In this document: one piece after another, positions 29,116-60,840 of the stretch
Position numbering within the stretch: the first letter of the stretch is position 1
Layout of the letters: each line of letters begins with the position of its first letter
Origin: the human T2T-CHM13v2.0 reference genome, Homo sapiens
Assembly (NCBI RefSeq): GCF_009914755.1
Contig: NC_060944.1
Length of the DNA: 64,000 nt
Reading direction: 5' to 3' (one strand)
Notes under the pieces: model-generated
The model's database searches: none
What the model was told of the DNA's origin: nothing
Seen by the model: only the letters and a program-made list of their open reading frames with translations
Position numbers and translations under genes: made by a program

Positions 29116-29189
29116 CATGATCAACTTGGCATGCTATATTATGCCATGTCAATGTGTGAATAAATGTGTTACGTGAGATGTGCAAGCAT

Positions 29190-30265: not shown

Positions 30266-31174
30266 TGATAATCTGGGGTAGAATATCTTTGTAATACAAA
30301 GAACTTTGAAAACAAGATGACTCATTTGTCCTAACTGGAAAAGTTTCCTTCTGGCCCTGAAGGAAACCCCTGGCTGGGGGTTTGAAGCCAGTGTGTACAC
30401 AGGGGTCTTTGAGGGCCTTAGTGTGTGGTGGGCTTCATGTTCTTGTAGTTGGGTGCCAAGTTTATTGGCAGTGTTTGGCCCAATTACCTGTTTGATCCTG
30501 GAGTTCATGAGTTATCTAATTTCATGATTCAAGTCATTACACATGTTAGGAGCAGACACATTGTCAGTTTTAACTTAATTCCTAAAATTAGCATTATTGA
30601 AAAAGTGAACTGCAAGGGGAACTCCTGATTTTAATCAATAGTTCAAGTGAGCATGGTTAAAGAATGTCAAAATTCAGCAAAAGCATCCAGAGCCTCCACA
30701 ACAATGACCTCTGTCAGACATTTGAGGCCACAAAGTGTTTGGGATAAGTGAGTTGTCCAGTGAGGGGAAGCAGAAACTGCTCTGAGCACTGAAACTTCTT
30801 TCCTTTTGATGGACATCATTGCCGGATACTTCGCATAGTTTCTTGCCTTAGTGAACAGAACATACTCAGCATCGTTTTGCCTTTTCTTAATAACTCAAGG
30901 TCCTATTAATAACATCCAATAGTAATTCAGGCAACTGACCCTGACCTCTCTGGTTTTGCAGAGCTCTCGAATACTAGCATTTGGGGGAAATTAAAATTGT
31001 CCAATTTGGCCTCCTTAACGTAGGGGAGCACTTTTTAGTAACCCAAAAAAGAGCCTAAAGAACTTACATTGACAGGTCTTTAGTGTCTGGGAGACCCTGG
31101 ACACTGGAGCCAGCTGTACAGTGGGAGTCTTCGTTAGCTAACCACCACCTCCTCAACAACTGCCCTTTTGCCTT

Positions 31175-31310
31175 CTAATCTTTACCAAGTGCCCACCAAG
31201 CACCTACCATGCCCAGGCACTGTTCTCCCTGCTGAGGAGTCAGTGATATGCCAGGAAGCAGATGTGGTTCCTGCCCTCAGGAAGCTTGAAATCTATTGTG
31301 GTGACAGGTA
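31175..31310 (-). mobile_element. L2 3' fragment
   Basis: caagcacctaccatgcccaggcactgttct...gtggttcctgccctcaggaagctt. Confidence 0.75.
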
Positions 31311-33659: not shown

Positions 33660-34110
33660 CCGGGAAGATGAGCCCGCTAATAACCAAGTTCAATAAGAGA
33701 ATCAATTAACATGCCTAGTAGCAGAGCTGCTTACCCTGCCTCTTCCTGGCAGGTGCCTGCTAGGGTCAGATGCAGCCCATAATTACAGCGTCAGGTTTGC
33801 AGCCTTTTTCATGGTAATTTGTATATGTATATATATGTCTGTGTATATATAAATATATAAAGTGTGGTTAAAATGGATGCTGAGCAGAGGTCCGGGGTAC
33901 TGGCAAAGACGGACGCGTTTAATTTCCTGCATGCTTGCTCTGGCTTGAAAGCCTGCAGCTGTGTGGCTGCTGTTTCGGAGCGAAAAACACACTGTTCTAG
34001 GAAACCACCTTCTCCGTGATTTATCAACCAGCGTTGTGGGAGCCAAATTAGTTGTTGATTGTTCTATCGAGTAACTCAACTTCGGCATTGAAGGATCTGG
34101 CGCAGGGAGG
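33660..34110. promoter_or_regulatory. Candidate enhancer or conserved element
   Basis: Non-repeat; cataattac, ggtaatttg, tttaattt, caaattag, gattgttc (SOX-like), retained CpGs. Confidence 0.4.
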
Positions 34111-35484
34111 TTGGAGGTTTGACGACCAGCGGCTTTCTCAGAAGTAGTCCTTTCTGGAAGCAGAGCCCATGCACAGGGGAACCGGCCGATGGGCTAGAAA
34201 CCCGGGCTGCAGAAACCATTAGCTTATGTTTCTAGAGAGAGCCTTGCGGCTGTCTCTCAAATGTCTGCAGCTCCGGTGGCCCCCCAGGGTGCCTTACTGG
34301 GCTGCGGGCCTGGGCTGTGCTTGTGTCTGCCTGTGGGCATCTGTCTACACAGCTCTGCCAGGCATCTGGAACTCTCTCTGGCATCCTCCCTCTGCAACCC
34401 AGGCCAATTTGAGAATCTGGCCTCACCCCTGTCGATGTTTCTCCTGCCCCTGTGCCCCTACCACAGGTGGGGCGGATGGGAAGGCACAAGGGGGTTTTCC
34501 AAGGCTGGAAACGGGGCCATGATAATTCAGGAGGTGGCTCCACTCCAGATGTCTCTGGCCATCTTGCTGTTTGGTGCGCCTATCCCGCTCTCAGGCCACA
34601 CTTGCCCTGCCTAGTCTCCAGGCCTCTTCCTCAGGCTGTGCCCACTATTCAAGGTATTCCCCCTCCAGGCCTGAAACCCCCACTGCTCAGGACCCAGCTC
34701 CCAGCCCACCTCCTCTGGGAAGCCCTCTTTGAGGGGGTTCTAGGCTGGGACTGTTATGACCTCCCACTGGCACGTTGGCTTGGCTCCTGGTACCTCCTGT
34801 GTCCCCATGTGGTGAGAGACAGGTGGCAGCCTCCCCACATGTGTGTGTGCATCTCCTGAGGTGCTGAGCGCATGGGAGGAGGGGAAGCAAGCTCACCGAC
34901 GCTGGGAAACCTGTCCTCCAGGCCGCCTGGTTAGAGTTTGCGGGGCAGGTGCAGCCCCAAGGCCCGTGTCTCTCAAGTGAGGTCTCCCAGCTCCCAAAGT
35001 CGTTTTCTCCTGAGGAACCATGCTAAAAATGCTGGTTCCAGGGCCCTGACAGAACCATGCTCTCAGGAGCCAGCACTCAGGGTGCCTGGGCTTTTTCTTA
35101 GAAGAGGTCTGGGATCTATTTCTGAAATAAGCTCTCTCAGAGAAATCTGACAGGTGCAGAATTTCAGAGCTACAAGCTGAGACAATGGCAGGGGCCTCCA
35201 GTAGCCGCCTGTCTCTGGGGCCCCTGGCCCACATGAGGCCCCTCAGGCCCGCACACGGTCTCCCTCCAGCTCACATGGCTCCACACACAGTCCCTCTGGC
35301 TCACACACAGTCCCTCTGACCCACACACGGTCCCACTGGCCCACACACCTCTCTTGGCTGCTGAGGTTTTGTGCTTCCACCAAGCCAGGGGACTGTTCTG
35401 TGGCCCTGGAACCACCGTGAAAGCAAACAACCCTCGGCTGTGTTGGGAGACAGCTCCAGCTCCTCCATCCTCAAATGTGAGAGC

Positions 35485-36494
35485 TGATGATTGGGGTGGA
35501 GGAGGAGGTGAGTGGGGAGGGGGTGGGGGAGAAGGAGGTGATGGGGAAGAGATGAGTGGGCAGGAGGTGAGCAGGGAGGAGGTGAGCAGGGATGAGTGGA
35601 GGAAGGAGGTGATAGGGAGGAGGTGAGTGGGCAGGAGGTGAGCAGGGAGAAGATGAGCAGGGGGGTGGTGAGCGGGGAGGAGGTGGAGGGGAAGGAAGTG
35701 ATGGGGGAGGAGGTGGGGGGAAGGAGGTGATGGGGAGGAGGTGAATGGGCAGGAGGTGACTGGGGAGGAGGTGAGCAGGGAGGAGGTGAGCAGGGAGGAG
35801 GTGAGTGGAGTGGGGATGGGAGTGGAGTGGGGGGAAGGAAGTGATAGGGAGGAGATGAGTGGGCAGGAGGTGAGCAGAGAGGAGATGAGTAGAGCAGGGA
35901 TGAGTAGGGGAAGGAGGTGATAGGAGGTGAGTGGGCAGGAGGTGAGCAGGGAGGAGGCGAGCAGGGAGGAGGTAGAGGGGAAGGAAGTGATGGGGAGGAG
36001 GTGAGGGGGGAAAGAGGTGGCGGGGGAAGGAGGTGATGGGGAGGAGGTGAGTGGGGAGGAAGGTGGGAGGAAGGAGGTGATGGGGAGGATGTGGGGGAGG
36101 TGGGGAGCAAGGAGGTGATGGGGAGGAGGTGAGTGGGGAGGTGGTGAGCAGGGAGGAGGTGAGGGGGCAAGGGAGGTGATGGGGAGGAAGGAGGTTATGG
36201 GGAGGTGGTGAGTGGGGAGGGAGGTAAGGGGTAAGGTGGTGATGTGGAGGTGGTGAGTGGGGAGGTGGTGAGAGGGGAGGAGATGAGGGGGCAAGGGAGG
36301 TGATGGGGAGGAGGTGAGTGGGGAGGAAGGTGGGGGGAAGGAGGTGATGGGGAGGATGTGGGGGAGGTGGGGGGGAAGGAGGTGAGGCAGAGGAGGGGAG
36401 TGGGGAGGGAGATGAGTAAGGAAGTGATGGGGAGAGGGTGAGTGGGGAAGTGGTGAGAGGGGAGGAGGTGAGGGGGCAAGGGAGGCGATGCGGA
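35485..36494. repeat. Degenerate G/A-rich minisatellite of ~15-bp monomers (GGAGGTGA-N-GGGN)
   Basis: ggaggtgagcaggga / ggaggtgatgggga / ggaggtgagtgggca modules repeated throughout. Confidence 0.93.
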
Positions 36495-37170
36495 GGAAGG
36501 AGGTGATGGGAAGGAGGTGAGTGTGTAGGAGGTAAGCAGGGAGGAAGTGGGGGGGAAGGAGGTGATGGGAAGGAGGTGAGTGTGTAGGAGGTAAGCAGGG
36601 AGGAAGTGGGGGGGAAGGAGGTGATGGGAAGGAGGTGAGTGTGTAGGAGGTAAGCAGGGAGGAAGTGGGGGGGAAGGAGGTGATGGGGAGGAGGTGAGTG
36701 TGTAGGAGGTAAGCAGGGAGGAAGTGGGGGGGAAGGAGGTGATGGGAAGGAGGTGAGTGTGTAGGAGGTAAGCAGGGAGGAAGTGGGGGGGAAGGAGGTG
36801 ATGGGGAGGAGGTGAGTGTGTAGGAGGTAAGCAGGGAGGAAGTGGGGGGGAAGGAGGTGATGGGGAGGAGGTGAGTGTGTAGGAGGTAAGCAGGGAGGAA
36901 GTGGGGGGGAAGGAGGTGATGGGGAGGAGGTGAGTGTGTAGGAGGTAAGCAGGGAGGAAGTGGGGGGGAAGGAGGTGATGGGAAGGAGGTGAGTGTGTAG
37001 GAGGTAAGCAGGGAGGAAGTGGGGGGGAAGGAGGTGATGGGAAGGAGGTGAGTGTGTAGGAGGTAAGCAGGGAGGAAGTGGGGGGGAAGGAGGTGATGGG
37101 GAGGAGGTGAGTGTGTAGGAGGTAAGCAGGGAGGAAGTGGGGGGGAAGGAGGTGATGGGGAGGAGGTGAG
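36495..37170. repeat. 59-bp VNTR, 11 full copies plus a partial copy
   Basis: Unit ggaaggaggtgatggg(a/g)aggaggtgagtgtgtaggaggtaagcagggaggaagtggggg; shifts 1 nt per 60-nt line. Confidence 0.98.
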
Positions 37171-39644
37171 AGGGGAGGAGCTGAGGGGGGAAGGAGGTAA
37201 TGAGGACAAGGTGAGGGGAAAGGAGGTAAGGGAGGGGAAGGGGAGGGAAGGAGCTGAGCGGGGCAGAGCATGTCTCCTCTCTTTAAGCATCCTCTGTATT
37301 CTGCAGAGGCCAAGCAGTCTGGATGTTGGCCTTCCTCAGTGGCCCATGAAATAACTTTGCTCCCCAGATTCTGAGCATGGGTTAGAACACCAAGTCCCTG
37401 AGCAGCCCCATCTCTGGGCTAGGGCAGGGAGGGCAGGGTCCCCTTTCAGCCTCACACCTGGGATGCACTCGTAGGAACCCGCCAGGTGTTCTGCTCAACT
37501 TAAGGTCTCAAACACCAGCCCAGGGCATTGCCACCTTCCCACAGTCATGGTGATGACGAGCTTGGAGTCCTGCAGATGTCAAGGAGGGACAGGGCTGCAC
37601 CCCTCACCCTAGCATCACTCCTAGGTCTGCAGGCCACAGAGGGTGGTGCTGGATTCGGTGGAGAAATGTGCATTTGCACTGGCTGTGCTCTTTACCGTGC
37701 ACCTCTGGGCAAGTCCTCCTAGGGCCAATGGGAGGAATCGCAGAGGCTTAGACATGCAGCTGTCTTCACCGCATTCCTTCCTGCTCCCTCTGCTGTGACA
37801 GGCTGCTTCCTGCCTGGGAGCTTTGAGTTCAGAAAGCTGTGAGCTGTTTTCAATTCAAGGGGCAGGTTCTCTCTCTCTCTAAGGGTCCCTGTAGACATAG
37901 GAGGGAGGGCTGGGGGTGAGTTCAGTAGGGAGGCTTCAGACAAAACCCAAAGAGATGAGCTAGTTTCCTTCCTAGTTAGCCTAGGTGGCCAGCGCCCTGT
38001 GGCCACTCGAGCACGTGTCTCTCCTCGTCTGCTCCAGCATGGGGCTGAGACTCCTGTTCCAGGATTGGGGCTGTCGCTGGTCTCGCGTTCCTTCTTCTTG
38101 AAACTCAGACAACCCACCCCAACCTGACCTTTGGACGTGCAGGGCATCTGCTCAGAACAGGTTGTCCTCTTAGCCTATTGTTCAACCTTGCCTGGTTGTC
38201 CCAAACCTTGAGCCAATCTCTGTAGCCTCAAAGAATCTTAGACTTGGGAGGGAGGGTGGCCCGGAGGACCTCATGTCCTGCATTTGGGGACACAGACACA
38301 ATCACGGCCTAATTAGACACAACTTGGCTCCCCTTCCATAAAGCTTGTTCCGTTTCACTTCCACCTGTGCTATTTTCATGTTTGTTTCTAAATAAATTCA
38401 CCTCTTAAAAACATTAAATAGATTTCTTTACGCAGGGTCAGAAGTGGGAAATCATTACTCCTTGCCGTATTTAATAGACGGTAACTGAAAAACAGAAACC
38501 AAGTGTTACTAGCTGGAGACCCTTGCCTGAAGAGGATTCCGAGCCTGAGTCCAGCTTTGTTCGCAAGGAAGGTTGTGAGTGTTCAGGGCCTGTGGATATA
38601 TTAGACAGAGATTTTTCCTGTCATCGTAATGCCACGCTTTAGCAAATTCTGACCAAGTGCAGCCCTTCAAACTCCAGGGGGGAAACTGAGACACCAGGTA
38701 GAGAAAGGAGAGACACCAGGTCAAAGGGGAGTCTGATAGCTGGGCTCAGACACCAGCTGGAGCTCTTCTCCACACCTTTCCATTTCACTCACCCCCTCCC
38801 TCTGTGCCTCAGTTTCCCTCCTCTCCATTAGTCCAGGCTCAATAGCCATACAGGTGGCAGTGGTGGGGATCAGGTGTCAGAGAGGAGCAGCAAGCTCTGT
38901 CTCAGCTCCATGGTGGTCATTGGGGGCCCTCCAGTCCTCTCCCTTTGGCTGATGATGGCTGTCTCCACGTGTCAGCCACAGCAACCCTGTCCCCAGACAC
39001 TAGCTGCTGTTGGAAGAGAAACATGCAAATTCCATCCATTCTCCTCAAACACAAAAGGGAATGTTTAAACTGGAGCCAGTCAGGGGTCGGGGGTGGAGGG
39101 AGTGGCCTCCATGAGGAATGCATGATAAATCCTCTCGCCTGGCTTCTTGGCTACATGAACAGTTTTATTTTTTCTCCCAATCCCTCCCAATTGTCCTCAT
39201 GTTGGGCACTGTTTTGTGTGCCAGAAGGACAGGGAGAAGGACAGATGATGGCCCCACCGTCCATCACAATTCTGGCAACGCAGAAGGCCTAGAGAGGAGG
39301 CTCGGGGGGGCTGGGGTGCAGGGCTCCAGGGTTTGTGGGGAAAGCTGTTTGGGAGTCACCACAACATCCATCATCAGCTGTCATGTGCATGCTGTTCCAC
39401 CTCTCTGTTTATTTTCTGAGCATCTCCAAGAGCCTGGGACACCAGGACAGGGCATGGCGGGAGGAGATGTTTGTGTTTCTCCAAAGAGAGCTTACCGTCT
39501 TGTGAGGTAGCAAGAGAAAATGCTGAGGAGGTGCTGATCATCAGGTGGGAGCTCCCTGTTTTGGTTCAAGAGGGGCCATAACAAAGGGTACAGTTAACTG
39601 CAGCTGTGTAGTGACAGGATAAGGAAGTTTCCTTCTTTCCTTAC

Positions 39645-39883
<239 letters not shown>

Positions 39884-45264: not shown

Positions 45265-45614
45265 TTTATCCATCCATCCATCTAGTCATCCATCCGTCTA
45301 GTCATCCATCCGTCATCCTTCATCCATCCATTCATCCTTTCTTCCATCCATCCATCCATCCATCCATCCTTCCATCCATCCATCGTTCCACCCACCCAAT
45401 CATTCATCCATTTATCACCCATCCATCCATCCATCTGTCATCCATCTAATCATCTATCCTTCATCTACTCATCTGTCCACCCATCTCTCCAATCATCCAT
45501 TCACCTAATTGTCCATACATCCTTCCACCCATTCATTCAGTCATCCATTTATCCATCCAATAATTAATCTAATTATCACAATTCATCCATCCATCCATCC
45601 ATCCATCCATCCAT
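45265..45614. repeat. Degenerate (CCAT)n repeat
   Basis: ccatccat runs. Confidence 0.93.
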
Positions 45615-48686: not shown

Positions 48687-49170
48687 CTCTCTCTCTCCAT
48701 TTCTTTCTGTCTCTCCATCTCTGTCTTTCGGTCTCTGCCTTGCTGTTTCTGCCTTTCTCTGTCTCTGTTCTCTGTGTCTCTTTGTCTCTGTCTCTGTCTT
48801 TCTGTTTTTCTCTGTGTCTCTGTCTCTGTGTCTATTTCGGTCTTTGTGTCTGTCTCTTTTTTCCATCTCTCTTTGTCATCTGTCCTTCTCTCTGTCTCTG
48901 TTTCTGTCTTTGTCTCTGTTTCTCTGTCTGTGTCCATCTCTGCCTCTCTATCTCTTTTTTATCTCTCTTTATCTTTCTGCCTCTATCTCTTTCTCTATTT
49001 CTCTCTCTGTGTTTTTCTTTTATCTCTGTTTTTCTGTCTGTGTCTGTCTTTCTCCCTGTCTCTGTCTCTGTGTTTCTTCTGTGTCTCTCTGTCTCCGCCT
49101 CCTTATTTCTGTCTCTGTCTCTTTCCATCTCTCTCAATCTCTGTGTTTCTTTTTTATCTCTGTCTCTCTT
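48687..49170. repeat. (TC/TCTG)n pyrimidine-rich tract
   Basis: tctctgtctc runs; explains the Ser/Leu/Cys and Arg/Glu/Thr ORFs. Confidence 0.95.
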
Positions 49171-49199
49171 TCACAGCATGCACACACACACACACACAC

Positions 49200-50245
49200 A
49201 CACAGGTGGGTCTTTAGGCAGAAATGATTCTTTTTATTTAACCAAGAATGAATTGGGCTGAAACACACACATTTTTGCCATTTTCAGTTTATCAAAAAGT
49301 ATATGTACATATGTGTGTGTGAGTGTGTATGCATATGTGAGTGCCTCTCTAGATAAAGTGCTTCTCCCCCTCCCTACCTTCTGCCTCTGGGTAGAACACA
49401 CTGATTTCTAAATAGCACCAGGAGACCCACACACTCTGACCTGCCTGGTCTGCAGGGCCAGACTTGCAGGTAGCTGTGTCTGTACAGACACAACTGTATG
49501 TGTGTGTGAGGCCCAATCCTCTCTCTCTAGCAGAATGAGGAGATGTATCTTTTTTTTCAGGATGGAAAACTACTGCTCTCTGAGCCGTGCTCTCCTGTGT
49601 GGGTAGAAAGATGCCTCTTTATCAGGACCAGCTCTAGGCCGCGCGGCCTCTGTTTTATTTGCTAAGGATCTGCCTTCTGAAATGCAAAATCATCTTTGTT
49701 TATTTGGGTTGGTTTGTTCCTCCCTGCAATGAGAAAAAAATATATAGTCTTTATGCACACAGAAAAACATATCTCCTCTCTGTCTCACACTCTCTTTGAT
49801 ACACACACACACCACACATGCGCGTGCGCGCACGCGCACACACGCACACACACACACACATTTTCCCTTCTTTCACTATGTGCCACTGGGAAAACAAACC
49901 CTTCATTCCTCGTTATTCCACACACGTAGAATAATGTGTGTGTCTCCAGGCAGAAAGTCAGAAAGTCTTTTCTCTCAATCCCTTTCCTTTTGGCCCCCCA
50001 TTCTTACACATGGTGCACACACACACGCACACACACACACACGCACTCACAGGCTCCATCACTGGAAAAACTGTCTCCCTTCTTTCACTAAAGATGCACC
50101 ACCCAAAAAGCCAGCACTTGATCTAGATGCAGATCTGATTGAGCCAAACTTGTGTGCACACACTCTCTCACGCACATGGATGCACACACACACTCTCACA
50201 CACTTTCCTGCATGCTGAGAAATGAATCCCTGAAGAAGGGAAGTG

Positions 50246-50276
<31 letters not shown>

Positions 50277-50811
50277 TGTGTTTGTCAAAAATTATTCTGT
50301 CTCAGAGAGTGGGTCTCTGAAGTCTTTATTACTGGATGGAAATACTGGCTCCTTTGAGAAAGTTTGTACTAGGGAGAAAAACATACGCATAAATTCTGTC
50401 TGTTGAAGAGGAAAATTGTGTGTGTGAGTGTGTAGAAGGTAAATGTCCTTTCTGTGTTGGTTTGTTTCTCTCTGCAATGAGAAAAAATGTTTTTATCCAT
50501 GAAGAGAAAGTGTCCCCTTTTCCCCCCACACCCCCTCCACATGCACGCACATGTGTACACACACACACATTTTCCCTTCTCTCACTGAATATGTGCCACT
50601 GGTGAAACAGACTCTATTTCTCAGTATGCAGAATAAAGTATGTGTGTGTCTCCAGGCAGAAAATCAGAAAGTCTTTTAATCTCTTCCTTTCTCTTTCTCT
50701 CTCTCTCTCTCTCTCAGAAAAGTCTCTCTCTGAAGGTTTCTGACACTTGGCAAATAGGCACCTCCCCCACCACCGGACAGAAAAACTCAGTCATGCTGTG
50801 ACAGCAGGAAG

Positions 50812-50848
<37 letters not shown>

Positions 50849-52306
50849 ACGTGCATGCAGGAAGATGTCTGTGTCTTGTTCTGTCTGTGTCTCTGAAAGC
50901 AGACATGCAGCAAGTCTCTCTCTCTCATCCTTACACACACACACACACATTTCACAGGCTCTATCCCTAGGGAAAAATCCCTCACATCTCCCTTTTCTCA
51001 GTAAAGATGCACCACCCAGAAAGACAGCACTCGATCGGATCTGCGTTTGGACTGGCAGAAAGCTGCCTAGCAGGAGTCTCTGGGGGTCTCTCTCACTAGC
51101 TCCTCATCACCAGCAGCAGCGACGCCATCCCCAGCTAAGCAATCCCCTTGGAGAAAGCCCCTGACCACAGCCCCCGCCTTTCCACCTCGGAGACTCGTGT
51201 GTGTCTGGGTATGGGCAGCAGAGAGTCGCTGTCTGTGAGTTGTTTGCTCTTCCCGAGGGCAGGAAAATCTGTATCAGGCAGAAAAATCTGTTTTGAAAAC
51301 ACGCATGCACATTCATGCACACAACACACATACGTACCACACACATACCACATGCATGCACACACAGGCAAAATGTCTTTCCTTCCTTCAGGAAAGGTGC
51401 ACCCCTGGAAAGCCCAGGCACTCTTTCTCAGTTTCCAGAAACCTGCCGGCATTGCTTGTCTTCAGAGACAACGTGTCTGTCAATGAGGAAAGTCTCTCTC
51501 GGAGGCCCTTATCTCTAGGAGAGAAAAACACACAATGAGAGAAACTCACTCTCCCTCTTCCCACACTCAGAAATCCGTGTGTGTGTATGCATTGCGCAGG
51601 AAAAACAAGCAAAACAAACCAAAACCAAACCTCTGTGCTCTGGCCCGTGATCTCTCCGTACACAGGAGAACGTGTGTGCCATTTTCCAGGCAGAAAAAAC
51701 GATTTTGGACACGTGCAAGCTCACTCGGATACGCACACACTCATGCAGAAAGGCCTCAGTTTGCACCAGAAAAACAAGCTCTATTTCCTCTTGGTACCTG
51801 GCCCTCAGAACAGTCTGTGTGCACCTCCAGATAGAAAATGTTTTTTCCCTTTCACTCAGAAAAGGCTCCATCCTAAGCTACCTGTAATGAGGCAGAAACG
51901 ACCTCCACCATTAGTAAAAGGCGCAACTGAGTAACTCACACGCACATGTTACTCTTTCCACACTGAGAGAATCCTGCATGTGTGCCTGCTTGTGCAAAAA
52001 ACCAAAACGTGTCTGGTTTGAGGCTTTCTGTGAGCTCAAAGAGACCTATCTTTTTCCAGATAGAAAAAAACCCCTGTCTTTCCAACACACACACACACAC
52101 ACACGCACACACACACACACACGAATACACGGCACTTGGGACAGAAATGTCCCCCTTGCCGGCCCCAGGGTGCACCGCCTCCAGCACACGATGCTCATTC
52201 CCTGCAGTTCTTGGCTCATGAGCAATTGCCAATTTGTGTCTGTCTTCAGGCACAAGACATTCTCTCACCCAGAAAGGGCCCCCAAGAAAACACAATTCAG
52301 ATAACA

Positions 52307-52337
<31 letters not shown>

Positions 52338-52633
52338 CTTTCTCCAATTCTCACTAAGGCTTCACCACCTAGAACATGATTTCTCAGTTCTTGGAATATT
52401 TTGTGTCTGTTTACGGGCAGAAAATGATCTGTCTCACTCAAATGTCTGTCCCTGAAGCTGCCCTCTACTCTCTCCCGCACCAGAGAAAAGCCCACTCACA
52501 CTCGCCCGCCCTTTTCACACTGAGCAAAGTCTGTGTGTGTGCACCTGCACACACTCTCATGTACGTGGCCAAAAAAATGTCCGTTGGTTCATCTCTTTCT
52601 GCAAACAAATGTGTCTTTTTCTAGGTAGAAAAA

Positions 52634-52680
<47 letters not shown>

Positions 52681-53717
52681 TTTCCCCTTCTCTCAATAAC
52701 TTTGCACCACCTGAAAGGTCATTATCCAATTCTTGGCTCTTGAGAAATCCTTTATCTCCAGTTAGAAAATACTGTTGCTCCCTGAGAAATGTCTAAAGTG
52801 CTCTGTCACTAGGCTGAACAACCTGCCGTGCCCTCCCCTGCACACACACACACTCACACCAGTCAGCAGGCGCGCACACACTCACAACCAGAAGAGCACT
52901 GTGTGCACGTCAGTACACATCCTGTCAGCCTTTCCATGTCTGCGCACACACACACACACGCGCGTGCGTAGGCAGAAACCTTCCCCCTGCCCATCAAGTG
53001 TCACCACTTAAAAATCACTTCTTTTTCTTCTAATTCTCAGCTTATGAAAATCTGTGTGTGTGTGTCTCCAGACAGAAAATGATTTTTTTTCCTCCTAAAT
53101 TGCTTCCTCCAGAGCACTTTCTCACTGGGAGAAATGATTCCCCTCCCCAAGAAAAACACTTTAGAGAAGACGATCACTCCCACTCTGACTTCCTTTTCAT
53201 ATTGGAAAATTGTGTGTGTGTGTGAGAAAAACTGTTCCCTTTTGGTCTGTTTTTTTTTTTTTTGCAAGCCAAAAAACCACGTATCTTTTTTTTCCAGGCA
53301 GAAAAACTACTGTCTGTTTTTCTGTCTATCTCTCTCTTATATACACAGATGTACACACATGTGCACACACACACACACACGCAGAATGTCTTTGTTTTCT
53401 AAGTATTTACCATCTGAAATAACCAGCACTTTCCAATCCCCAGCCCTCAGAAAAATATGTTTCCAGGTAGAAAATATTCTCTGTCTCTCAGAAAAGTCTC
53501 TCTCTAAAGGTTTGTCACTGGGCAGAAATCTCTCTTTCTCTCTCACATACACACACACAACAAGAAGGAAAATGTGTGTCTGTGGTTGTGGTTGTGTGTT
53601 TGTTTTTGTGTGTGTGTGTTTGTGGGTACAAGCCGATGAAAGTCTCTCCATGTTGAGCTGCCTCCCTGCAAGCAAAAAAATACATGTTCTTTTTTTTCCA
53701 GAAAGAAAAAATACGCC

Positions 53718-53763
<46 letters not shown>

Positions 53764-54105
53764 TGTGGCTCTTCTCTATGTACTACCTGAAAAACAAGCA
53801 AACAAACACTATTTCTGGGCTTGCAGAAAATTATGTGCTTGCTTGTTTCCAGGCAAATAACAATATTCTTAATCTTCACTCAGAAAAGTCACTTTTCAAA
53901 ACTCACTGGGCAGAAATACATTCTTCCCTAAAAAATAACAACCTACTCTCACCGTCTTTCCACACTTAGAAAAGTGTGTGTGTGTGTTTGTGTGCACGTG
54001 TGTAGTGGGAAAAAAACCCTCACTTTGTTAGTCTATCTCTTCCTGCAGGCAGAAAAATATACGCATCTTTTTCTCTGCGGGAAAACATGTACGTGAGGTG
54101 CACTG

Positions 54106-54155
<50 letters not shown>

Positions 54156-54571
54156 TCAGGCAGAATGTCTGTTTTCTCACTAAGTATGCACCACCTGAAA
54201 TACCAACACTTTTGAAATTCTCGGCTCACAGAAATACATGTGTCTCCAGGCAGAAAATGTTCTTTTTCCCTCTCAGAAAAGTCTCTCTCTAAAGCTTTTC
54301 ATCACCGGGCAACATAACTCCCCTCTCCCCAAGAAAGCACACACAAAATATGAAAAACACACGTTGGAAAAGAAGAAAACTCTGTGTGCATTCATAGGTG
54401 TGTGGTTATAAGCAAAAATGTCTCTCTGTGTGGATTTGTCTCCCTGTAAGCAGAAAAATACGTATGTGATTTTTCCAAGTGGGAACAAAATTCTTCTCTT
54501 TCTCTCACTGTCTTTCCCTCTCACTGTCTCCCCTCTCTCTCTCTCACACACACAGTACAGACACACACGCG

Positions 54572-54611
<40 letters not shown>

Positions 54612-55320
54612 TCTTCACCGGGCTCCCCTGCTAAGCAAATATGTCTCCCATTCTCTAGGGAAGTGTGTGTGCACCACTTGAAAAACACTATTTTGTAGCT
54701 TGCAGAAAATTATGTATACGTGTATGTTACAGGCAGAAAATGCCCTCCCTCTTTTTTTCTTTCTCTTCTTCTTTCTCTCTTTCCCTCTTGGAAACGTTTC
54801 CCCTGCCACAGCCAAGAAACACACACCACATTAGGAAAACATAAGTACCTGCTCACTCCCCAGGTAGCACATGTTACGGGTGTGTGCACACGGCCCTGCC
54901 TGTTGCTCTGTCTCTCCCCGCACACAGGAAAACACGTGCTTGTGTGTGCTTTCTCCAAGAAGAAAAATCAATCTTTCTCTCTCTCTGCCTCTGTCTCTCT
55001 CTCCCTCTGGTGGAAAAATCATAGTTTATTGCTTTTTCCCACCAGCAGAAATATCTCCTACCTTAACCCCTTACAGGGGCTGGGGACCTGCACGCACTCG
55101 CCCTGCAAATCTGAAAACCCGGCGCTCTCCCTCCTGCTCTTTAGAAAAAGGGGCATGGGTCACTGTCACCCATTTTCTTATCACGAGAAGAGAGTGCCTG
55201 TGTTATTCTCTCTTTAGCTAGGAGAGCTCTCTGTCTTTGTCACACGCACCCCCTTTCCATGTCTGAAAAGGGTGTTTGTGTCACTGTCTGGGCCCAATGT
55301 CACTGTCCATTTACTCTGCA
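49200..55320. repeat. Old degenerate tandem array of ~14-15 modular units (mean ~370 bp) with embedded (CA)n/(TG)n runs
   Basis: 49700-49990 aligns to 50450-50690; 50050-50140 to 50950-51045; 53381-53530 to 54160-54310; TCTCAGAAAAGTCTCTCTCT is exact at 50712, 53486 and 54271; a GCACCAC..GAAA anchor recurs about 14 times. Confidence 0.9.
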
Positions 55321-55479
55321 CCCTGGGCAGGCAGTGCCTTTCACTAGGAAAGAAGGAAGTTTCTCCCACTGCTCCGTCCCCAGGGTCCTCTCAGGGACCT
55401 TCCCCCTGTCCCCGCACCTAGTCCAGGTGGGAACCGGTCTCCCCTTGCAGGGAGGCGCTCTGTCTTCTCCCGGGCCTGG

Positions 55480-56100
55480 ATACACAGGTGTCGCAGCAGG
55501 AGTTCAATGTACCCCGTGACGCCCTCGCGGCCAGACGCCCCTGCCCAGAAAGAGGGGACCCTCCACTTCACTGAACCCAGCCCGTGCCAGGCCCCCGAGG
55601 ACACCGGGCCACAGTCTCCTAGGATGCTCCCAGGCCTGGAGCGGGGCAGGGTATCTCGGTGCCAGGCAAGTTGGTCCCCAACGAGCCACCCCAGCGGGGG
55701 TCCCTCCTCCAGTCCCCTGAATCCCTTGTCTCTGGGACCACGTCTCATCTAGGCTCAATCAGGGGCGATGACAACAACCATGACTTTGCCCCAGGAACCT
55801 GAGTGGGGGGCACGGGGCCCGAGGAAGAAGGGGCCAGCGGGCTGTTCCCCACGCTGCACCCCCACTCTGGCGCAGCGAAGTCTGCAGATCTCTGGACCCC
55901 GGCGCTGCCGAAGCCTCCCCCACGCGCCGCGCTCACTCGCTGCACAACAGCGCCACCACGAGGCCGCGGGCGGAACTGCCGGCAGCACAGCGGTCGCACC
56001 CCCCGGGCCCCCCGCCGGCTGTGCGGATCCCGAATCCCTGCTTGGCTCGGAGCTGCCAGGTCTAAGCCGACCCTCAGAGACGCACGCCCCTGACCCGCTG
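55480..56100. promoter_or_regulatory. CpG island, likely promoter
   Basis: About 32 CpGs counted in 55801-56100, high GC, GC/KLF boxes (cacgcccc, gggcgg); not Alu-derived. Confidence 0.8.
55948..55981 (-). promoter_or_regulatory. CTCF-like site with upstream motif
   Basis: Minus strand GGCAGTTCC-N8-CCTCGTGGTGGCGCTG versus consensus TGCAGTNCC-N8-CCASYAGRKGGCRS; three core mismatches. Confidence 0.5.
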
Positions 56101-56394
56101 GGCAGCTGTGGTGTCTTTGTATACAATGTTCCCTTCCTTTCTCCTCTTCTCGTAGATGTTCAGATTCCAAGGGACTTTTCCAGAAGCTTCCAGAAAACTT
56201 TCCTTTTAGGGGCCCAAGAGACCTTGATTTCAGGGACACAGTGAACCCCACTTAGGACCCCAAGAAAAGGGACTTGTCTCCAATCTCCTGTCCTAGAATG
56301 TGCAGACTTAGGGGGCTCTCCTGTACTCCTGGGTCCCGCACATCTGTCCAGCCCCGCCTCGTTCACCAGAGGCAGCAGAGACAGGCTGAGCACA

Positions 56395-56560
56395 CAGACG
56401 TGGGCTCAACTCTCTGCCCATCCACTCACTGTCTGGGGAACTTGAACAACTCACGTTGCCTTTCTGTGCCTCAGTTTCCCCATCTGGAACTGGTCTAAAA
56501 GAACACCCCCCGGTAGAGCTTCTGGGAAGATCACATGAAGTATGAAGCTTTGAGAGCTTT
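56395..56560 (+). mobile_element. MIR
   Basis: gtgggctcaactctctg...ctttctgtgcctcagtttccccatctggaactgg. Confidence 0.8.
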
Positions 56561-57159
56561 TGTACCCGACAGGCTCTCAGGAGGCAGCAGTCCAAACGGT
56601 GGAGGGATCATTATGACTAAGCAGGCACAGCTCCCAGCCGAGGGGGAGCTGGATCTCCCTGGCATCGACCACCCCAGGATGGTTATGGGATAAATACCTC
56701 TGCAGACGTTCAAGTGGAGAGGCTCAGGAGGATGCCGGGAATGTCTGCTGTTGCTGGGTGGGGAATTCAAATGATTTGTGTTCACTGTATCCCAGCTAAG
56801 AAGTTCTGGGCCGGGGCAATCTTTCTGATGCCCTCTTGTCTCCTGTTAACAAGGATTAGCTCAGCAGTATAGACAGGACCATAAAATATACCACCTTAGC
56901 CAGATCCTGGGGAGGCCACTAATGGAGCCACACTGGGCCAGGTCCACGGGGGCCTCTCAGTCACAGCTGGGAGGTGAGGCAAAGCCACCGTCGTCCTCAC
57001 CTGCCCATCCACCATCCCGGTGAGGTCAGTGCTCAAAACCTGTCTTTATCCCAGTCCGGTCTCACAGGGAGTATTTGTGCTGCTTTAAAGCCCTTCCCGG
57101 TGTCCTACTTACTTCTCCCTCTCAACCCGCCGGCTGAGATAGGCTAAAGAGAACATCGT

Positions 57160-57600
57160 TTCTTCAACAGATGTTTATTGAGGACCTGTTATATTTCGGG
57201 AGCCGTGCTGGCCGCTAGGGACACAGCCTGAACAAGATAGGTCCCTCTTCTCTCAGGGAACTGACATTCTGGTGGAGAGAGGACAAAAACCATGTATTAA
57301 TAAGTAAACAAGACAATTTCAGAAGACAAAGGCTGTGAATGAAGCAAAATAGGATAGACAGTAATTGGAGAGGGCTCCTTTACACAAGGGGCGGGGGGCG
57401 GGGATAAGAAGAAGGAGCTGGCTGAGTGCAGAACAGCAGGAAGGGTATTCCAGGCAGAGTGAATAGCAGGTTGAGGCCCGGGGTCAGGGGAGAATGAGCT
57501 CTGCCCGTTTGAGGAATGGCAGGAAGGGCCCTGGGGCAGGTGCGCAGTGGTCAGGGAAGCGGCCAGAGCTGGCTTGTGCTGGATGCAAAGAGAAGGTAAG
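57160..57600 (-). mobile_element. L2
   Basis: ttcaacagatgtttattgaggacctg...ggaactgacattctggtgg...gggtattccaggcagagtgaatagca. Confidence 0.85.
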
Positions 57601-60503
57601 GGATTGGAGTACTTAATAAATATTTGTCAAGTGAGTGAATGCATAATTTGATCTATCCATGTACAGTTGACCAGGTGGCGAAGGTTTGCCGAGTCAGCTT
57701 CTGTCCATTTTCTCTACTTAGTGGTGTCAGCTCTCAAAGACTTCTTGCTTCAGAGCCCCTCTCCGTGCTCCTGTGAGGGTGGGGATGAACCCTGAAAAGC
57801 CGTCTCCTTGTGGGCATTGCTGTTGTGTTCTCAGCATTCTTGCACGTTGACTTAAAGCTATTCAAACTCCTTATGAGCATCTGAGGGAGAGGAGCTGGAT
57901 CCACACTCTGGACTCTTGAATCCAACTTTGAAATAAAATATTTAAACAGCCCATCTCATGATATTCAGAACAATAGTCTGAAAAGTATTCTGCAATAGTC
58001 ATTGAAACAAAATGCCTAATTCCCAAATTACCAGTCTACAGAGTTCCCAAGGAAGAAGCGTGGATGTGAAACAGCTGCAGACTCCGTTGTTTCCTGGATG
58101 GCCCGAAACAGTTGTTCTCACTCAGTTTCACTTGAGAATCACTTTCAAGGAGGAGACTTTTTCAATTTGCCATAAATCTTACCATGTTTATTTTTAGAAG
58201 TTTCAGCTCCGTGATAATTTGCAAATGAGAAATGTTTAGAACCCATGTTGAACTGAACTTCCCCAAGAGGAGACTGGATTACATTAGATGAAATGGAAAT
58301 AGAAGTCAAATCTTGGGGAACACTGACGTCCTTGCCATGAAACCATCCATTGTGGATGTGCCCTCATTGTGGAACCTCACCTGCAATGTTTATGTGCTGG
58401 AAATAGAATTATATCAGCCATTCACACTTTAGTCTAAACATGAGGCACTTGTTCCTGCTCTCCATCATGAATCCATGTGAATCCTAAAAAATAAGATATC
58501 TTTTGTCCCAATTTCACAGTGGACCAATGGAGGAGCAGTGGATGTGTAGCCACCGAAGTCTCAAGATGGCTTTGGAGGTTCTGGGTGATGATGGGGGCTC
58601 CAGGGTTTCTAAGAATCTTTGAGAAGTCCACACTTGGGAGCTGGAAAGCCATCCAGAGCAAGGCAAGTGTTGATCCTCACAAACAAGAATTTCCCAAAGT
58701 TGCGAAAGAAGCCCTGCTGAGGAAGCAGGAGTACTAAGCTTGAGTCTTGGCTCCCGCTCTCCCTGTGTGACAACAGCCAAGCTCTAGGCCCATAGAGGAA
58801 AGAGTCTGAATCCCCAATCCAAACCTTTCACTTCTCAGCTAGGAAACGGGGGCTTACTGAAAGAGGGCACTGCCAGGTTGCCAGTGCAAAAGTTGTCCTT
58901 TCTGAGCCTCAGTGTAAACCCACAGGGGGTGTCTTCCTCACAGTCACGTGAGCAGGCCAAGCCTTCCTTCTGACTCCCAAGTCATCTGTGGACAGAGACA
59001 GCTGGAGAAACGGTTTCCTAGAGCACTAGCAAGCCTCTAGCTGGACATACCTCCATTGAGTTTCATCAGAAACGGGTAAACCTGGGTGCAGAGTTGCATA
59101 AACTTAGGCAGGTGCATCCAGATCCCAGAGCCTTATTCCTGGATGTAAGGTTTCTTGCGAGGTGTGGCTTCTCTGCTTGCTGCAATCCAAGGAGTGAAAA
59201 TGTATTTTGTATCTTCTCCTCAAGAAGAGAAGAAAATAACGAAAGAAGGAAAAACAATAAAAGAAGGGTAAAAAGAGGAGAGGCAAATTGAGCTACGTTG
59301 GGTTTATCTCAGTCATAAAATGAGGGATGACTTCCGTAAAGTTCATATTCTTTCTGCCTCTTGTCCAACTGTTTAAGCAATTATTGAGTGTCTCCTATGT
59401 TCTGGGGGCTATGCTGCAGCCTGAGGTTACAAAGAGTGGCAGGACCTGGCTGTGTCTTCAGTAAACCCCTACTTTCTACACTCAAGTTAGGGAGATAATG
59501 TCAAGGAGTTTAGCTTTTGCTTACTTGTTTCTTTTCTTTTTTTCTTTTTCCCTTTTCCATTTCCCTAGGCCTGTTTCTGTACCTTGCTCTTTCCTTCCTA
59601 GCTCTGCTCTCTCCATCCCTCTTTGACCACCACGTACAGTAATACTTTTATTCACTGAGTGTATTACGTTGAGTTTTATCTCACATGTCCTTTACTTTAG
59701 AAATGAATGACTCTGATTCATGGAACCTCTCTCCACACACAGGATTCATTTGCTTTTTTTGGCGTGTGGGACTCTGGATGGAAAAAATTTCTTGTCCTTG
59801 AATTCAGGAGCACTTCTATCATGCCTCCTATAATAAGATTGAAAGTTCTATTGGCCACATTTTTGGAGGACTGATTTTAGTCATAAACATATAGGTTCAG
59901 CAAGACACCCAGAAAAGTAGGATGTTTTTTTCAGGGCTCCTAGGCTAGTGCTCGGGTGAGAACACAAGTTGTTTAGATTCGGGGGCATTATGGTGCTCAA
60001 AGTTGACTTTAAATGAATGATAGAGTGACAGTAGCTTGCTGAAAGGTTTGGTGATTGGAAAAGGTCTTTCTAGCTTCACCTTTCTCAAGCAGTGTGAAAT
60101 ATGCATGGCAAGTCTTATTTTCTATTTAGGCAAATCCATCCCTTTGCTGTCGATAAGAACGAAACCAAAAAAGGTCACAATTTTTCACTGTCAACAAGAA
60201 ACAAAGAGCAAATGAATTAGGGCTGCAGCCTGGAAAACAGGAGCCAGGGTGGGAAAAACAAGAAAACGAGAGCTGGCCCTCATGTATTGCTTCCTGGTCC
60301 CCATGGGCCTATTGAGGACCCCCTGCCCTGCCCCCAGAGGTGAGGCCTTCTCATTTTTCATATCTTTGTGACCTTCAAGCATTGTTTCTTTGAAAGGAAG
60401 GGGGGCAAAGGAAGCAGGGATAAAATAGAAGATGGAGGCCCCCCACGAGAAGAGGAAAACCAGAATTGCACTCACCCAAGGAACCACAATCTGTATTTCT
60501 TGA

Positions 60504-60840
<337 letters not shown>

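What the first reader, a model, noticed from the sequence alone, without database searches (positions are those of the whole stretch)
49200..56100. Locus-specific ~6-kb modular tandem array abutting a CpG-island promoter: candidate repeat-scaffold lncRNA or regulatory domain
Seen: what looks like scattered (CA)n/(TG)n microsatellites is an ordered array. Consensus module order is (CA)n - CTCACTAAGTATGCACCACCTGAAA - GCAGAAAA..TGTGTCTCCAGGCAGAAAA - TCTCAGAAAAGTCTCTCTCTAAAG..TCACTGGGCAGAAA - TTCCACACT.AGAAAA.(TG)n - CTCCCTGCA.GCAGAAAAATAC - TTTTCCAG. The GCACCAC-type anchor appears at about 49880, 50095, 50590, 51005, 51395, 51760, 52170, 52360, 52700, 53000, 53405, 53780, 54185 and 54670. Units have diverged strongly yet the short motifs persist. 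I recognised no Alu, MIR or L2 insertion in these 6 kb of an otherwise TE-dense window, and the array ends at the CpG island. It matches no TE or satellite I recognise. Known analogues are multivalent repeat domains in nuclear lncRNAs (XIST repeats, FIRRE local repeats, NORAD repeat units). Inference: a transcript running leftward from the CpG island would carry the array at its 5' end as a protein-binding scaffold.
Basis: partly seen in the sequence, partly recalled or inferred. Interest (0 to 1): 0.85.

Follow-up and report, generated by a model that had tools for sequence, protein, structure and literature searches.

The report
Ancient decayed tandem array near EDN3
A real but very old and heavily decayed tandem repeat of about 380-base units, found only at this spot downstream of the EDN3 gene, that looks like a genomic fossil rather than a proven RNA scaffold.

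Summary
The ordered array is real. About 17 head-to-tail units (median 379 bp, all on the + strand) fill window 49,155-55,010. Single units find each other in register even after all dinucleotide runs are masked: 29 non-self hits, against 1 in a reversed-sequence control. The unit is found only here. BLAST and a profile search of the whole T2T genome find only microsatellite or low-complexity matches elsewhere; the best profile hit outside the array has E = 0.19.

The array is old. Mean pairwise identity is 56%, and the best internal matches are 72-81%. Five units are truncated. CpG content is like the bulk genome.

- The window is among the least repeat-masked on chr20 (6.1%, 3.4th percentile), not TE-dense.
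- The array stops 300-700 bp short of a small CpG island.

The motifs are not significantly better kept than the spacers. RefSeq has no gene here. The units carry no repeated CTCF or Pumilio motif and no Rfam family.

Best reading: a fossil locus-specific tandem duplication, built hierarchically (about 195 bp, then about 390 bp, then multi-unit blocks) and decaying neutrally, in which only the (CA)n tracts stay "alive". The lncRNA-scaffold or regulatory reading is untested here and has no positive support.

The parts
48749..49210 (+). CT-rich low-complexity tract of (TCTCTG)n type, ending in (CA)12. It forms the left border of the array and resembles the CT-rich stretches that precede (CA)n in units u16 and u17.
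   Evidence: TRF rows 48,756-49,122 and 49,181-49,204. It is the only soft-masked stretch next to the array.
49155..55010 (+). The tandem array: about 17 head-to-tail units (u01 49,205 ... u17 54,609-55,010). Unit lengths are 152-456 bp, median 379. Each unit runs: anchor ...GCACCACCTGAAA, then ..CAGAAA.. TGTCTCCAGGCAGAAAA, then CTCAGAAAAGTCTCTCTCTAAAG, then TCACTGGGCAGAAA, then TTCCACACT.AGAAAA-(TG)n, then CCCTGCAAGCAGAAAAA, then TTTTCCAGGCAGAAAA, then (CA)n.
   Evidence: nhmmer. Alignments A1 and A2. Profile R1. Unit table.
52961..54608 (+). Best-preserved block, units u13-u16. u14 and u16 (two units apart) are the closest pair in the array.
   Evidence: u14/u16: 76.8% over 185 bp at offset 775, and 74% in A2. 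nhmmer E down to 1e-33.
49581..51348 (+). Colinear multi-unit block duplication. [u02-u03-u04] corresponds to [u05-u06-u07]. u03 and u04 are truncated.
   Evidence: blastn pairs: 49,848-49,990 with 50,557-50,696 (77%); 50,029-50,123 with 50,933-51,036 (81%); 49,705-39 with 50,453-87 (91% over 35 bp). Score matrix.
55001..55013 (-). Single CTCF-core-like motif (1 mismatch) at the right edge of the last unit. It is not repeated in the units.
   Evidence: 2 matches in the window against 3.55 expected by shuffling.
55010..55300 (+). Possible further, almost erased unit between the array and the GC-rich zone.
   Evidence: Only weak nhmmer hits (55,110-55,281 at E=0.049; 55,008-55,061 at E=4.6).
55300..56200 (.). 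Unique GC-rich zone. A small CpG island lies at about 55,700-56,200. No gene or promoter is annotated there.
   Evidence: 300-bp windows at 55,701-55,901: GC 0.65-0.73, o/e 0.71-0.89, 24-32 CpG. Unique in the genome. ORFs have no Pfam match.
56501..57001 (.). RefSeq functional element 'H3K4me1 hESC enhancer'. It sits where the + strand GC skew turns from negative to positive.
   Evidence: skew table.

Best explanation
This is a fossil, locus-specific tandem duplication array, a decayed macrosatellite-like repeat. It lies 72-78 kb downstream of EDN3.

Proposed history:
- A sub-unit of about 195 bp carried pyrimidine tracts followed by (C)AG-GCAGAAAA and a TG/CA-rich stretch.
- It doubled into a unit of about 390 bp.
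- That unit was amplified head-to-tail, by unequal exchange or replication slippage, to about 17 copies.
- Some amplification happened as multi-unit blocks.
- Amplification then stopped.

Since then the copies have diverged independently, by substitution and deletion, at about the neutral rate and without homogenisation. Only the (CA)n and (TG)n tracts at fixed places in the unit have stayed long, because slippage renews them.

The 'persisting motifs' are what chance retention leaves in 13-17 copies at about 56% pairwise identity. The same CAG-GCAGAAAA module also recurs several times per unit.

Shown here: the array, its hierarchy, its restriction to this locus, its divergence, and the lack of coding, Rfam, CTCF or Pumilio signatures.

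Inferred: the mechanism of origin, the age, and the absence of a sequence-specific function.
For: Array and register.

Hierarchy:
- R1, built from the first halves of units, also matches second halves at 7 places with E<=0.031. All 35 of its window hits lie in 49,193-55,010.
- 9-mer offset peaks occur at about 200-225, 375-400, 700-725 and 875-900 bp.
- Block duplications appear.

Locus restriction:
- BLAST of 53,381-54,608 and of 50,950-52,084 finds only microsatellite or low-complexity segments elsewhere.
- The R1 search of the whole genome gave 41 matches at E<=10. Fifteen are in the array. The best of the other 26 has E=0.187 at 21.8 bits.

Age and decay:
- Mean pairwise identity is 55.6%, maximum 74%; K2P mean 0.74, minimum 0.32.
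- The best internal BLAST pairs are 72-81% identical.
- 5 of 17 units are shorter than 300 bp.
- CpG o/e is 0.34-0.35, against 0.16 and 0.28 in the flanks.

No excess motif conservation: 26 columns at >=0.9 against 19.1 +/- 4.1 expected (118/2000); lag-1 autocorrelation 0.125 (122/2000).

No function-type signature:
- No ORF with a Pfam match above cut-off.
- Rfam hits only far below gathering, for example mir-466 at 34 bits against 85.
- CTCF motif once, at the array edge.
- 3 Pumilio-type octamer matches at two sites (two of them overlap at 49,302-49,311).
- Fold z<=-4 in only 4-5 of 17 units.
- No RefSeq gene.
Against: - The array sits in one of the least repeat-masked parts of chr20. It is 0.7 kb from a CpG island and 1.5 kb from an H3K4me1 hESC enhancer element. 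It is about 8 kb from the human block that corresponds to a horse EDN3-linked performance haplotype, reported as an endothelial enhancer cluster (PMC11182536, passages read; my coordinate conversion uses a recalled hg38 position for EDN3). The neighbourhood is therefore probably regulatory.
- The column-conservation test is borderline rather than flat (p about 0.06). The variance of conservation exceeds the star-phylogeny model in 2000 of 2000 simulations. Shared ancestry and misalignment can explain that, but selection is not excluded.
- The + strand of the array is poor in poly(A) hexamers (1, against about 5 expected from the window rate). It is rich in 3' splice-site-like Y-tract-YAGG strings (34 against 13.9).
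- The − strand has a positive GC skew running away from the island, as expected downstream of a CpG-island start site (recalled). This skew may simply be inherited from the unit's composition.
- No cross-species, transcription or chromatin data could be consulted.
Confidence: 0.6

Rival explanations
1. The array is a cis-regulatory DNA domain. Its periodic (CA)n/(TG)n tracts (Z-DNA-prone, nucleosome-excluding) and repeated short motifs act at the DNA level as an enhancer cluster, boundary or chromatin-phasing element in the EDN3-PHACTR3 gene desert.
For: - The neighbourhood is repeat-poor at the 3.4th percentile of chr20.
- A CpG island and an H3K4me1 hESC enhancer element lie within 1.5 kb.
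- A published endothelial enhancer cluster lies about 8 kb away (PMC11182536).
- The array holds 16 (AC)>=6 runs and 6 (GT)>=6 runs in 5.9 kb. The other 58 kb hold 0 and 3.
- The sub-unit of about 195 bp and the unit of about 390 bp are close to one and two nucleosome repeat lengths (my inference).
Against: - There is no per-unit CTCF motif.
- Motifs are not significantly better kept than spacers.
- Units are truncated and 56% identical.
- CpG content is bulk-genome-like.
- RefSeq lists no functional element inside the array.
Confidence: 0.22
2. An unannotated nuclear lncRNA starts at the CpG island and runs leftward through the array. Its repeated modules serve as a multivalent protein-binding scaffold. 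On the − strand the RNA would carry 16 (UG)6-23 tracts (TDP-43-type sites, recalled) and several (CA)n tracts (hnRNP L-type sites, recalled).
For: - A CpG island by sequence criteria lies 0.7 kb to the right.
- The − strand GC skew is positive from the island through the array.
- Going leftward, the − strand meets a poly(A) hexamer at 55,025, just inside the array's right edge, and then none for 4.3 kb.
- The modules are strictly strand-polar.
- Units fold better than shuffles on average: mean z about -2, against +0.26 in flank controls.
Against: - There is no RefSeq gene or transcript in the 64 kb.
- The element next to the island is H3K4me1-type, not a promoter.
- The first − strand poly(A) hexamer lies only about 700 nt from the island.
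- 5' splice-site-like hexamers are not enriched (9 against about 6 expected).
- There is no Rfam match.
- There are only 3 Pumilio-type matches, at two sites.
- Motif conservation is at the neutral expectation.
- Strong structure is found in only 4-5 of 17 units.
Confidence: 0.1
3. The array is a hairpin or dsRNA-producing cluster. Each unit's (UG)n and (CA)n pair into a long duplex, so the array yields small RNAs or Z-RNA/dsRNA ligands. The mouse Sfmbt2-intron mir-297/466/467/669 cluster (recalled) would be the analogue.
For: - Rfam E-value hits to mir-466, mir-297, mir-3149 and MIR2646 lie over the TG/CA parts.
- Unit u15 folds with z=-6.6 (+) and z=-7.9 (−) through a (UG)n.(CA)n stem.
Against: - All Rfam hits are far below gathering (20.7-40.7 bits against 75-245).
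- The paired tracts are more than 100 nt apart, so the structures are not pre-miRNA sized.
- Only 4-5 of 17 units keep both tracts and a z<=-4.
Confidence: 0.03
4. The pattern is an artefact of scattered microsatellites and low-complexity sequence, or a fragment array of a known dispersed repeat or satellite.
For: - TRF does not call the long period.
- Much of the raw similarity lies in CA/TG/CT runs.
Against: - Homology persists in register, on the + strand only, after all dinucleotide runs are masked. The reversed control gives 1 hit against 29.
- No copy of the non-microsatellite parts is found elsewhere in the genome.
- The stretch is not soft-masked.
Confidence: 0.05

Closest known systems
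Decayed (ancient) tandem repeats, as targeted by repeat labellers such as ULTRA (PMC11580682; I saw the search listing and the start of the abstract only)
   Same: Head-to-tail units at one locus. The units are diverged below the roughly 70% identity that TRF needs, so the long period goes unreported. There is no dispersed copy.
   Different: - The period is unusually long (about 380-390 bp).
- The build is hierarchical (about 195 bp, then about 390 bp, then blocks).
- Live (CA)n and (TG)n microsatellites sit at fixed positions in nearly every unit.
Macrosatellites and local repeats with chromatin roles (DXZ4, D4Z4, FIRRE local repeats); their properties are recalled, not from a call
   Same: Tandem units of hundreds of bases. 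Single locus. Lies next to a CpG-rich element.
   Different: - Recalled properties of those arrays: highly homogeneous units, variable copy number, and a CTCF or YY1 site or a CpG island in each unit.
- Here the units are 56% identical.
- CpG content is bulk-like.
- There is only one CTCF-like motif, at the array edge.
Repeat domains of nuclear lncRNAs (XIST repeats A-F, NORAD repeat units with Pumilio elements); recalled
   Same: Strand-polar short motifs recur at regular spacing.
   Different: - No transcript is annotated.
- There are only 3 Pumilio-type matches, at two sites.
- There is no Rfam family.
- The motifs are not demonstrably constrained.
TG/CA-rich miRNA hairpin clusters (Rfam mir-466 and mir-297 families)
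   Same: A tandem array whose units can pair a (UG)n arm with a (CA)n arm.
   Different: - Scores are 26-34 bits against gathering scores of 85-90.
- Loops exceed 100 nt.
- Most units have lost one arm.

Membership tests
Locus-specific decayed tandem repeat | Same-strand, head-to-tail copies that align in register | tested here: met
   29 non-self hits, all on the + strand; the reversed control gave 1.
Locus-specific decayed tandem repeat | Unit absent from the rest of the genome | tested here: met
   The best profile hit outside the array has E=0.187. Caveat: only 150 of about 1,000,494 first-look candidates were scored, and closed regions are not shown.
Locus-specific decayed tandem repeat | No homogenisation: copies diverged about as far as old neutral DNA | tested here: met
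   Mean identity 55.6%, maximum 74%. Best BLAST pairs 72-81%.
Locus-specific decayed tandem repeat | Not derived from a curated mobile element or satellite (Dfam/Repbase) | not testable with these tools
   No Dfam or RepeatMasker here. The only indirect evidence is that the stretch is not soft-masked and has no dispersed copies.
DXZ4/FIRRE/D4Z4-type macrosatellite | Highly similar units kept alike by concerted evolution | tested here: not met
DXZ4/FIRRE/D4Z4-type macrosatellite | CTCF (or similar) site or CpG island in every unit | tested here: not met
   One CTCF-like motif, at 55,001-55,013 only. Array CpG o/e is 0.34.
DXZ4/FIRRE/D4Z4-type macrosatellite | Copy-number polymorphism between people | not testable with these tools
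   Only one assembly is available.
lncRNA repeat-scaffold domain (XIST, NORAD, FIRRE type) | Lies inside a transcript | not testable with these tools
   No expression data are available. RefSeq lists no gene in the window.
lncRNA repeat-scaffold domain (XIST, NORAD, FIRRE type) | A defined protein-binding motif in each unit | tested here: not met
   The Pumilio element matches 3 times, at two sites. The CTCF motif occurs once. (UG)n and (CA)n tracts are present, but they are generic microsatellites.
lncRNA repeat-scaffold domain (XIST, NORAD, FIRRE type) | Motifs conserved above spacers | tested here: inconclusive
   Tested on paralogous units only: 26 columns against 19.1 +/- 4.1 expected (118/2000); clustering 122/2000. 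Orthologues are not available.
mir-466/mir-297-type hairpin cluster | Rfam gathering score reached | tested here: not met
   Best scores are 34.3 against 85 (mir-466) and 26.5 against 90 (mir-297).
CpG-island promoter | Sequence criteria: GC>=0.5, o/e>=0.6, length >200 bp | tested here: met
   About 55,700-56,200.
CpG-island promoter | A transcription start or gene | not testable with these tools
   RefSeq has none. The nearest element is an H3K4me1 enhancer. No CAGE data are available.

The most novel reading that the evidence does not exclude
The array is a retained, pre-eutherian, dinucleosome-period repeat domain that works through its phased (CA)n/(TG)n tracts. One version: it is transcribed from the orphan CpG island as an unspliced nuclear RNA. 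That RNA carries 16 (UG)n tracts and several (CA)n tracts, which would make it a multivalent TDP-43/hnRNP L platform with periodic (UG)n.(CA)n duplexes. The other version: it acts as Z-DNA-prone phased chromatin that tunes the EDN3 regulatory landscape implicated in blood-pressure and performance traits.
Probability: 0.1. Interest if true: 0.65.

Novelty: new member of a known kind. Interest (0 to 1): 0.3.

Why it matters
As it stands this is a tidy example of a class that standard annotation misses. TRF, soft-masking and RefSeq all leave the 5.8 kb blank, yet it is a single ancient duplication array.

It also concentrates 22 CA/GT microsatellites in under 6 kb. That probably makes it a dense source of length polymorphism next to a regulatory region tied to EDN3, blood pressure and, in horses, athletic performance. 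It is a possible confounder or carrier of association signals there.

If the array proved to be transcribed or constrained, it would be a new autosomal repeat-domain element. Nothing found here points that way.

Tried and rejected
- Coding reading. There are 35 ORFs of >=80 aa over 49.0-58.5 kb. All are low-complexity or GC-rich. Of 5 tested against Pfam, none reached a cut-off. Rejected.
- Known RNA family. An Rfam E-value scan of 47-59 kb gave only sub-gathering miRNA-like hits over TG/CA tracts. Rejected.
- Dispersed repeat or TE. Two BLAST searches and one profile search of the T2T genome found nothing beyond microsatellite or low-complexity matches. Dfam is not available.
- CTCF-per-unit and Pumilio-per-unit (FIRRE/DXZ4 and NORAD analogies) were not found.
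- U1/poly(A) asymmetry as a sign of transcription direction. The counts are small and not distinctive.
- Structure. The tool fold of u15 is strong on both strands. The survey of all 17 units shows this holds for only 4-5 units. A covariation test was not attempted, because the stems are microsatellites.
- Literature.
  - EDN3 + PHACTR3 + lncRNA gave 3 papers. One was relevant, PMC11182536. I read its outline, abstract and passages from sections 3, 4, 6, 11, 12, 21 and 31.
  - EDN3 + 'tandem repeat' + 20q13 gave 3 papers, none about this array judging by their listings.
  - 'RP4-614C15' appears only in that same paper.
  - 'AL035250' gave 0 papers.
  - The coordinate searches found nothing. One search was void, because a phrase does not match across a colon (shown).
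  - I found no paper describing this array in these searches.
  - Supplementary tables of PMC11182536 (the HiCap interaction tables S5-S6) are closed. They could show contacts with the array or the CpG island.
- Cross-species conservation, RNA-seq/CAGE, chromatin tracks and population variation: no tool here reaches them.

Full report
**Where it is.** The window is T2T-CHM13 chr20:61,132,001-61,196,000. EDN3 ends at 61,109,315, so the finding lies 72-78 kb downstream of EDN3. The next annotated features are PIEZO1P1 (61,244,779) and PHACTR3 (61,361,726). RefSeq lists no gene in the window. It lists two 'H3K4me1 hESC enhancer' elements, at window 27,526-28,026 and 56,501-57,001.

- A fuzzy search for the anchor (up to 3 mismatches) finds 10 + strand sites between 50,095 and 54,670. 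In the other 58 kb there is one + strand site.
- Each of three whole units, used alone as an nhmmer query, hits the other units in register with E down to 1e-33.
- Microsatellites could fake this, so I masked every dinucleotide run (831 bases in the array) and repeated the search with five units. That gave 29 non-self hits at E<=0.01, all on the + strand and all within 49,683-54,969. The same queries gave 1 hit against the reversed window.
- MAFFT alignment of 17 units (A1) shows the module order: post-(CA)n AGGCAGAA..TCTC-ACTAAGTATGCACCACCTGAAA; TTCTCAGCT..CAGAAA; (TG)3-6 TCTCCAGGCAGAAAATG; CTCAGAAAAGTCTCTCTCTAAAG; TCACTGGGCAGAAA; CTTTCCACACT.AGAAAA; (TG)n; CCCTGCAAGCAGAAAAAT; TTTTTCCAGGCAGAAAAA; (CA)n.
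- Unit lengths are 152-456 bp, median 379.
- TRF with periods up to 500 reports only the microsatellites and short-period low-complexity tracts, not the long period. That fits with units well below 70% identity.

- The array proper is 49,155-55,010. The leftmost unit (49,205-49,580) is supported only with microsatellites left in (E=3.4e-8 with a seed HMM that did not contain it). The stretch 55,010-55,300 gives only weak hits.
- The GC-rich zone starts at about 55,300. Windows that meet CpG-island criteria are at 55,701-56,200 (GC 0.65-0.73, o/e 0.71-0.89). The array is therefore 0.3-0.7 kb from the island rather than ending at it. 'Promoter' is unverified.
- The window is not TE-dense. Soft-masked stretches of >=100 bp cover 6.1% of it. 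chr20 overall is 25.1% masked and the median 64-kb window 17.7%, so this window is at the 3.4th percentile. The neighbours from 61.00 to 61.26 Mb are similar (0.06-0.09).
- The unmasked run that contains the array (49,211-60,520) is not even the longest in the window (27,198-39,663). The absence of young TEs in the 6 kb is thus a property of the neighbourhood, not of the array. The masking seems to miss old repeats and some tandem arrays, so nothing can be said about MIR or L2 from it. A MIR-like fragment does show up at 56,406-56,489 through its many genomic matches (the MIR name is from recall).

**Anatomy.**
- The array is strictly polar. CAGAAA occurs 39 times in 5.9 kb, against 3.3 per 5.9 kb elsewhere. 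Its complement is not enriched (6 against 4.6). CAGGCAGAAA occurs 8 times, all in the array.
- All 16 perfect (AC)>=6 runs of the window are in the array. Six (GT)>=6 runs are inside and three outside.
- The build is hierarchical.
  - The profile R1, built from the first halves of 13 units (A2), also matches the second halves at 7 places with E<=0.031. All 35 of its window matches at E<=10 lie in 49,193-55,010, 33 of them on the + strand.
  - Shared 9-mers peak at offsets of about 200-225, 375-400, 700-725 and 875-900 bp.
  - Above the unit level there are colinear block duplications. [u02-u03-u04] matches [u05-u06-u07]. Units two or four apart match at the right end (u14/u16, u12/u16, u15/u17).

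**Locus restriction.**
- BLAST of 53,381-54,608 against the whole T2T genome gave 76 matches. Outside the array, all of them cover only the CA, TG or CT-rich segments of the query.
- The same holds for 50,950-52,084, where only an imperfect CA-rich segment matches elsewhere.
- The profile R1 gave 41 genome matches at E<=10. Fifteen are in the array: the 13 training units plus 54,907-55,010 and 50,074-50,130. The best of the other 26 has E=0.187 at 21.8 bits.
- Caveats: only 150 of about 1,000,494 first-look candidates were scored, and closed regions are not shown.
- The GC-rich zone and the island are unique apart from the MIR-like piece.

**Age and mode of evolution.**
- In A2 the mean pairwise identity is 55.6% (maximum 74.3%). 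K2P mean is 0.74, minimum 0.32.
- The best internal BLAST pairs are 72-81% identical over 104-185 bp.
- With recalled neutral rates of about 1-2.2e-9 per site per year, 79% identity corresponds to roughly 55-125 million years. The bulk of the divergence is older and saturated. This is an inference, and an elevated local mutation rate would shorten it.
- There is no sign of recent homogenisation.
- Five of 17 units are shorter than 300 bp.
- CpG o/e is 0.34-0.35, against 0.16 and 0.28 in the flanks.

**Are the motifs kept better than the spacers?**
- On 136 well-occupied columns of A2, 26 have a consensus frequency >=0.9. A uniform-rate star simulation matched to the observed identity expects 19.1 +/- 4.1, and 118 of 2000 simulations reach 26.
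- Conserved columns are not significantly clustered (lag-1 autocorrelation 0.125; 122 of 2000 permutations reach it).
- The variance of conservation does exceed the star model (0 of 2000). Shared ancestry of units and misalignment near indels would produce that as well.
- So the impression that motifs persist is mostly what chance retention looks like across 13-17 copies. It is helped by the same CAG-GCAGAAAA module recurring several times per unit.
- This test uses paralogues only and is weak.

**Function-type signatures.**
- No ORF has a Pfam match above cut-off.
- The Rfam scan gave only sub-gathering hits to TG/CA-rich miRNA families.
- There is one CTCF-like motif, at the array's right edge (55,001-55,013, − strand). 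The window total is 2 against 3.55 expected.
- There are three Pumilio-type octamer matches at two sites in the array (two of them overlap at 49,302-49,311).
- Unit u15 folds far better than shuffles on both strands (z -6.6 and -7.9), through a (UG)n.(CA)n stem that closes a loop of more than 100 nt. Across all 17 units only u04, u05, u13 and u15 reach z<=-4 on at least one strand. The mean z is about -2, against +0.26 in 17 flank controls. The structure therefore follows wherever both microsatellites survive and is not a kept feature of the unit.
- Poly(A) and 5' splice-site hexamer counts are not distinctive. The + strand has few poly(A) hexamers (1) and many 3' splice-site-like strings (34 against 13.9 expected). 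The − strand meets a poly(A) hexamer at 55,025, about 700 nt from the island.
- The + strand GC skew is negative from 48.5 to 56.5 kb and turns positive at about 57 kb. That would suit divergent transcription from the island region. Over the array, however, it is simply the unit's composition repeated.

**Context from the literature.** PMC11182536 (outline, abstract and passages read) reports that a horse racing-performance haplotype 50 kb downstream of EDN3 lifts to hg38 chr20:59,375,651-59,389,801. It reports that this block behaves as an endothelial enhancer cluster contacting GNAS, SPO11, ZNF831 and the lincRNA RP4-614C15.2. Using my recalled hg38 position of EDN3 to convert, that block is about window 27-41 kb, some 8 kb left of the array. 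The other searches found nothing on this array (two searches were uninformative).

**Verdict.**
- The thing is real, locus-specific and unannotated. It is best explained as a fossil tandem duplication array decaying neutrally, with live microsatellites (confidence 0.6).
The decisive data (orthologue conservation, CAGE/RNA-seq, chromatin, deletion) are outside these tools.
- It is a new member of a known kind (decayed tandem repeats).
- Interest is modest, 0.3.

Noticed in passing
window 35,496-37,263: A G-rich minisatellite (periods 30/59/118 bp; about 1.7 kb). A 177-bp higher-order period is 98% identical over 3.8 copies at 36,495-37,170, so it expanded recently and is probably a VNTR. It is not in the soft-masked list. 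By my approximate conversion it lies inside the human block that corresponds to the horse EDN3 performance haplotype (PMC11182536). It may contribute to that block being longer in human than in horse.
   Followed up: partly
window 1-64,000 and chr20:61.00-61.26 Mb: The whole EDN3-PIEZO1P1 interval is unusually poor in soft-masked repeats (6-9% per 64 kb, against a chr20 median of 17.7%). The window is at the 3.4th percentile. This is typical of dense regulatory landscapes (recalled).
   Followed up: partly
window 6,754-7,823; 644-1,012; 45,268-45,614: Other long low-complexity or tandem tracts in the window: a 1.07-kb CT-rich (CTCTCCCC)n-type tract, a degenerate (TGA)n of about 370 bp, and an (ATCC)n of about 350 bp. 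The window holds several tandem and low-complexity tracts of 0.35-1.7 kb.
   Followed up: no
window 56,406-56,489: A short stretch right of the CpG island matches many loci genome-wide at 75-86% identity. It reads like the core of a MIR element (name recalled). It lies just left of the RefSeq H3K4me1 hESC enhancer element at 56,501-57,001.
   Followed up: no
window 56,500-57,750: The + strand GC skew switches from negative (48.5-56.5 kb) to positive (up to +0.33 at 57,250-57,749). The switch is centred on the H3K4me1 enhancer element. Two tandem GGGGCGG boxes lie at 57,388-57,403.
   Followed up: no
window 53,790-53,850 (unit u15): A unit-specific inverted repeat (AAACAAGCAAACAAAC... / ...GTGCTTGCTTGTTTC) forms a long, well-paired hairpin in both strand folds, independent of the microsatellites. 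It is not shared by the other units in A1.
   Followed up: no
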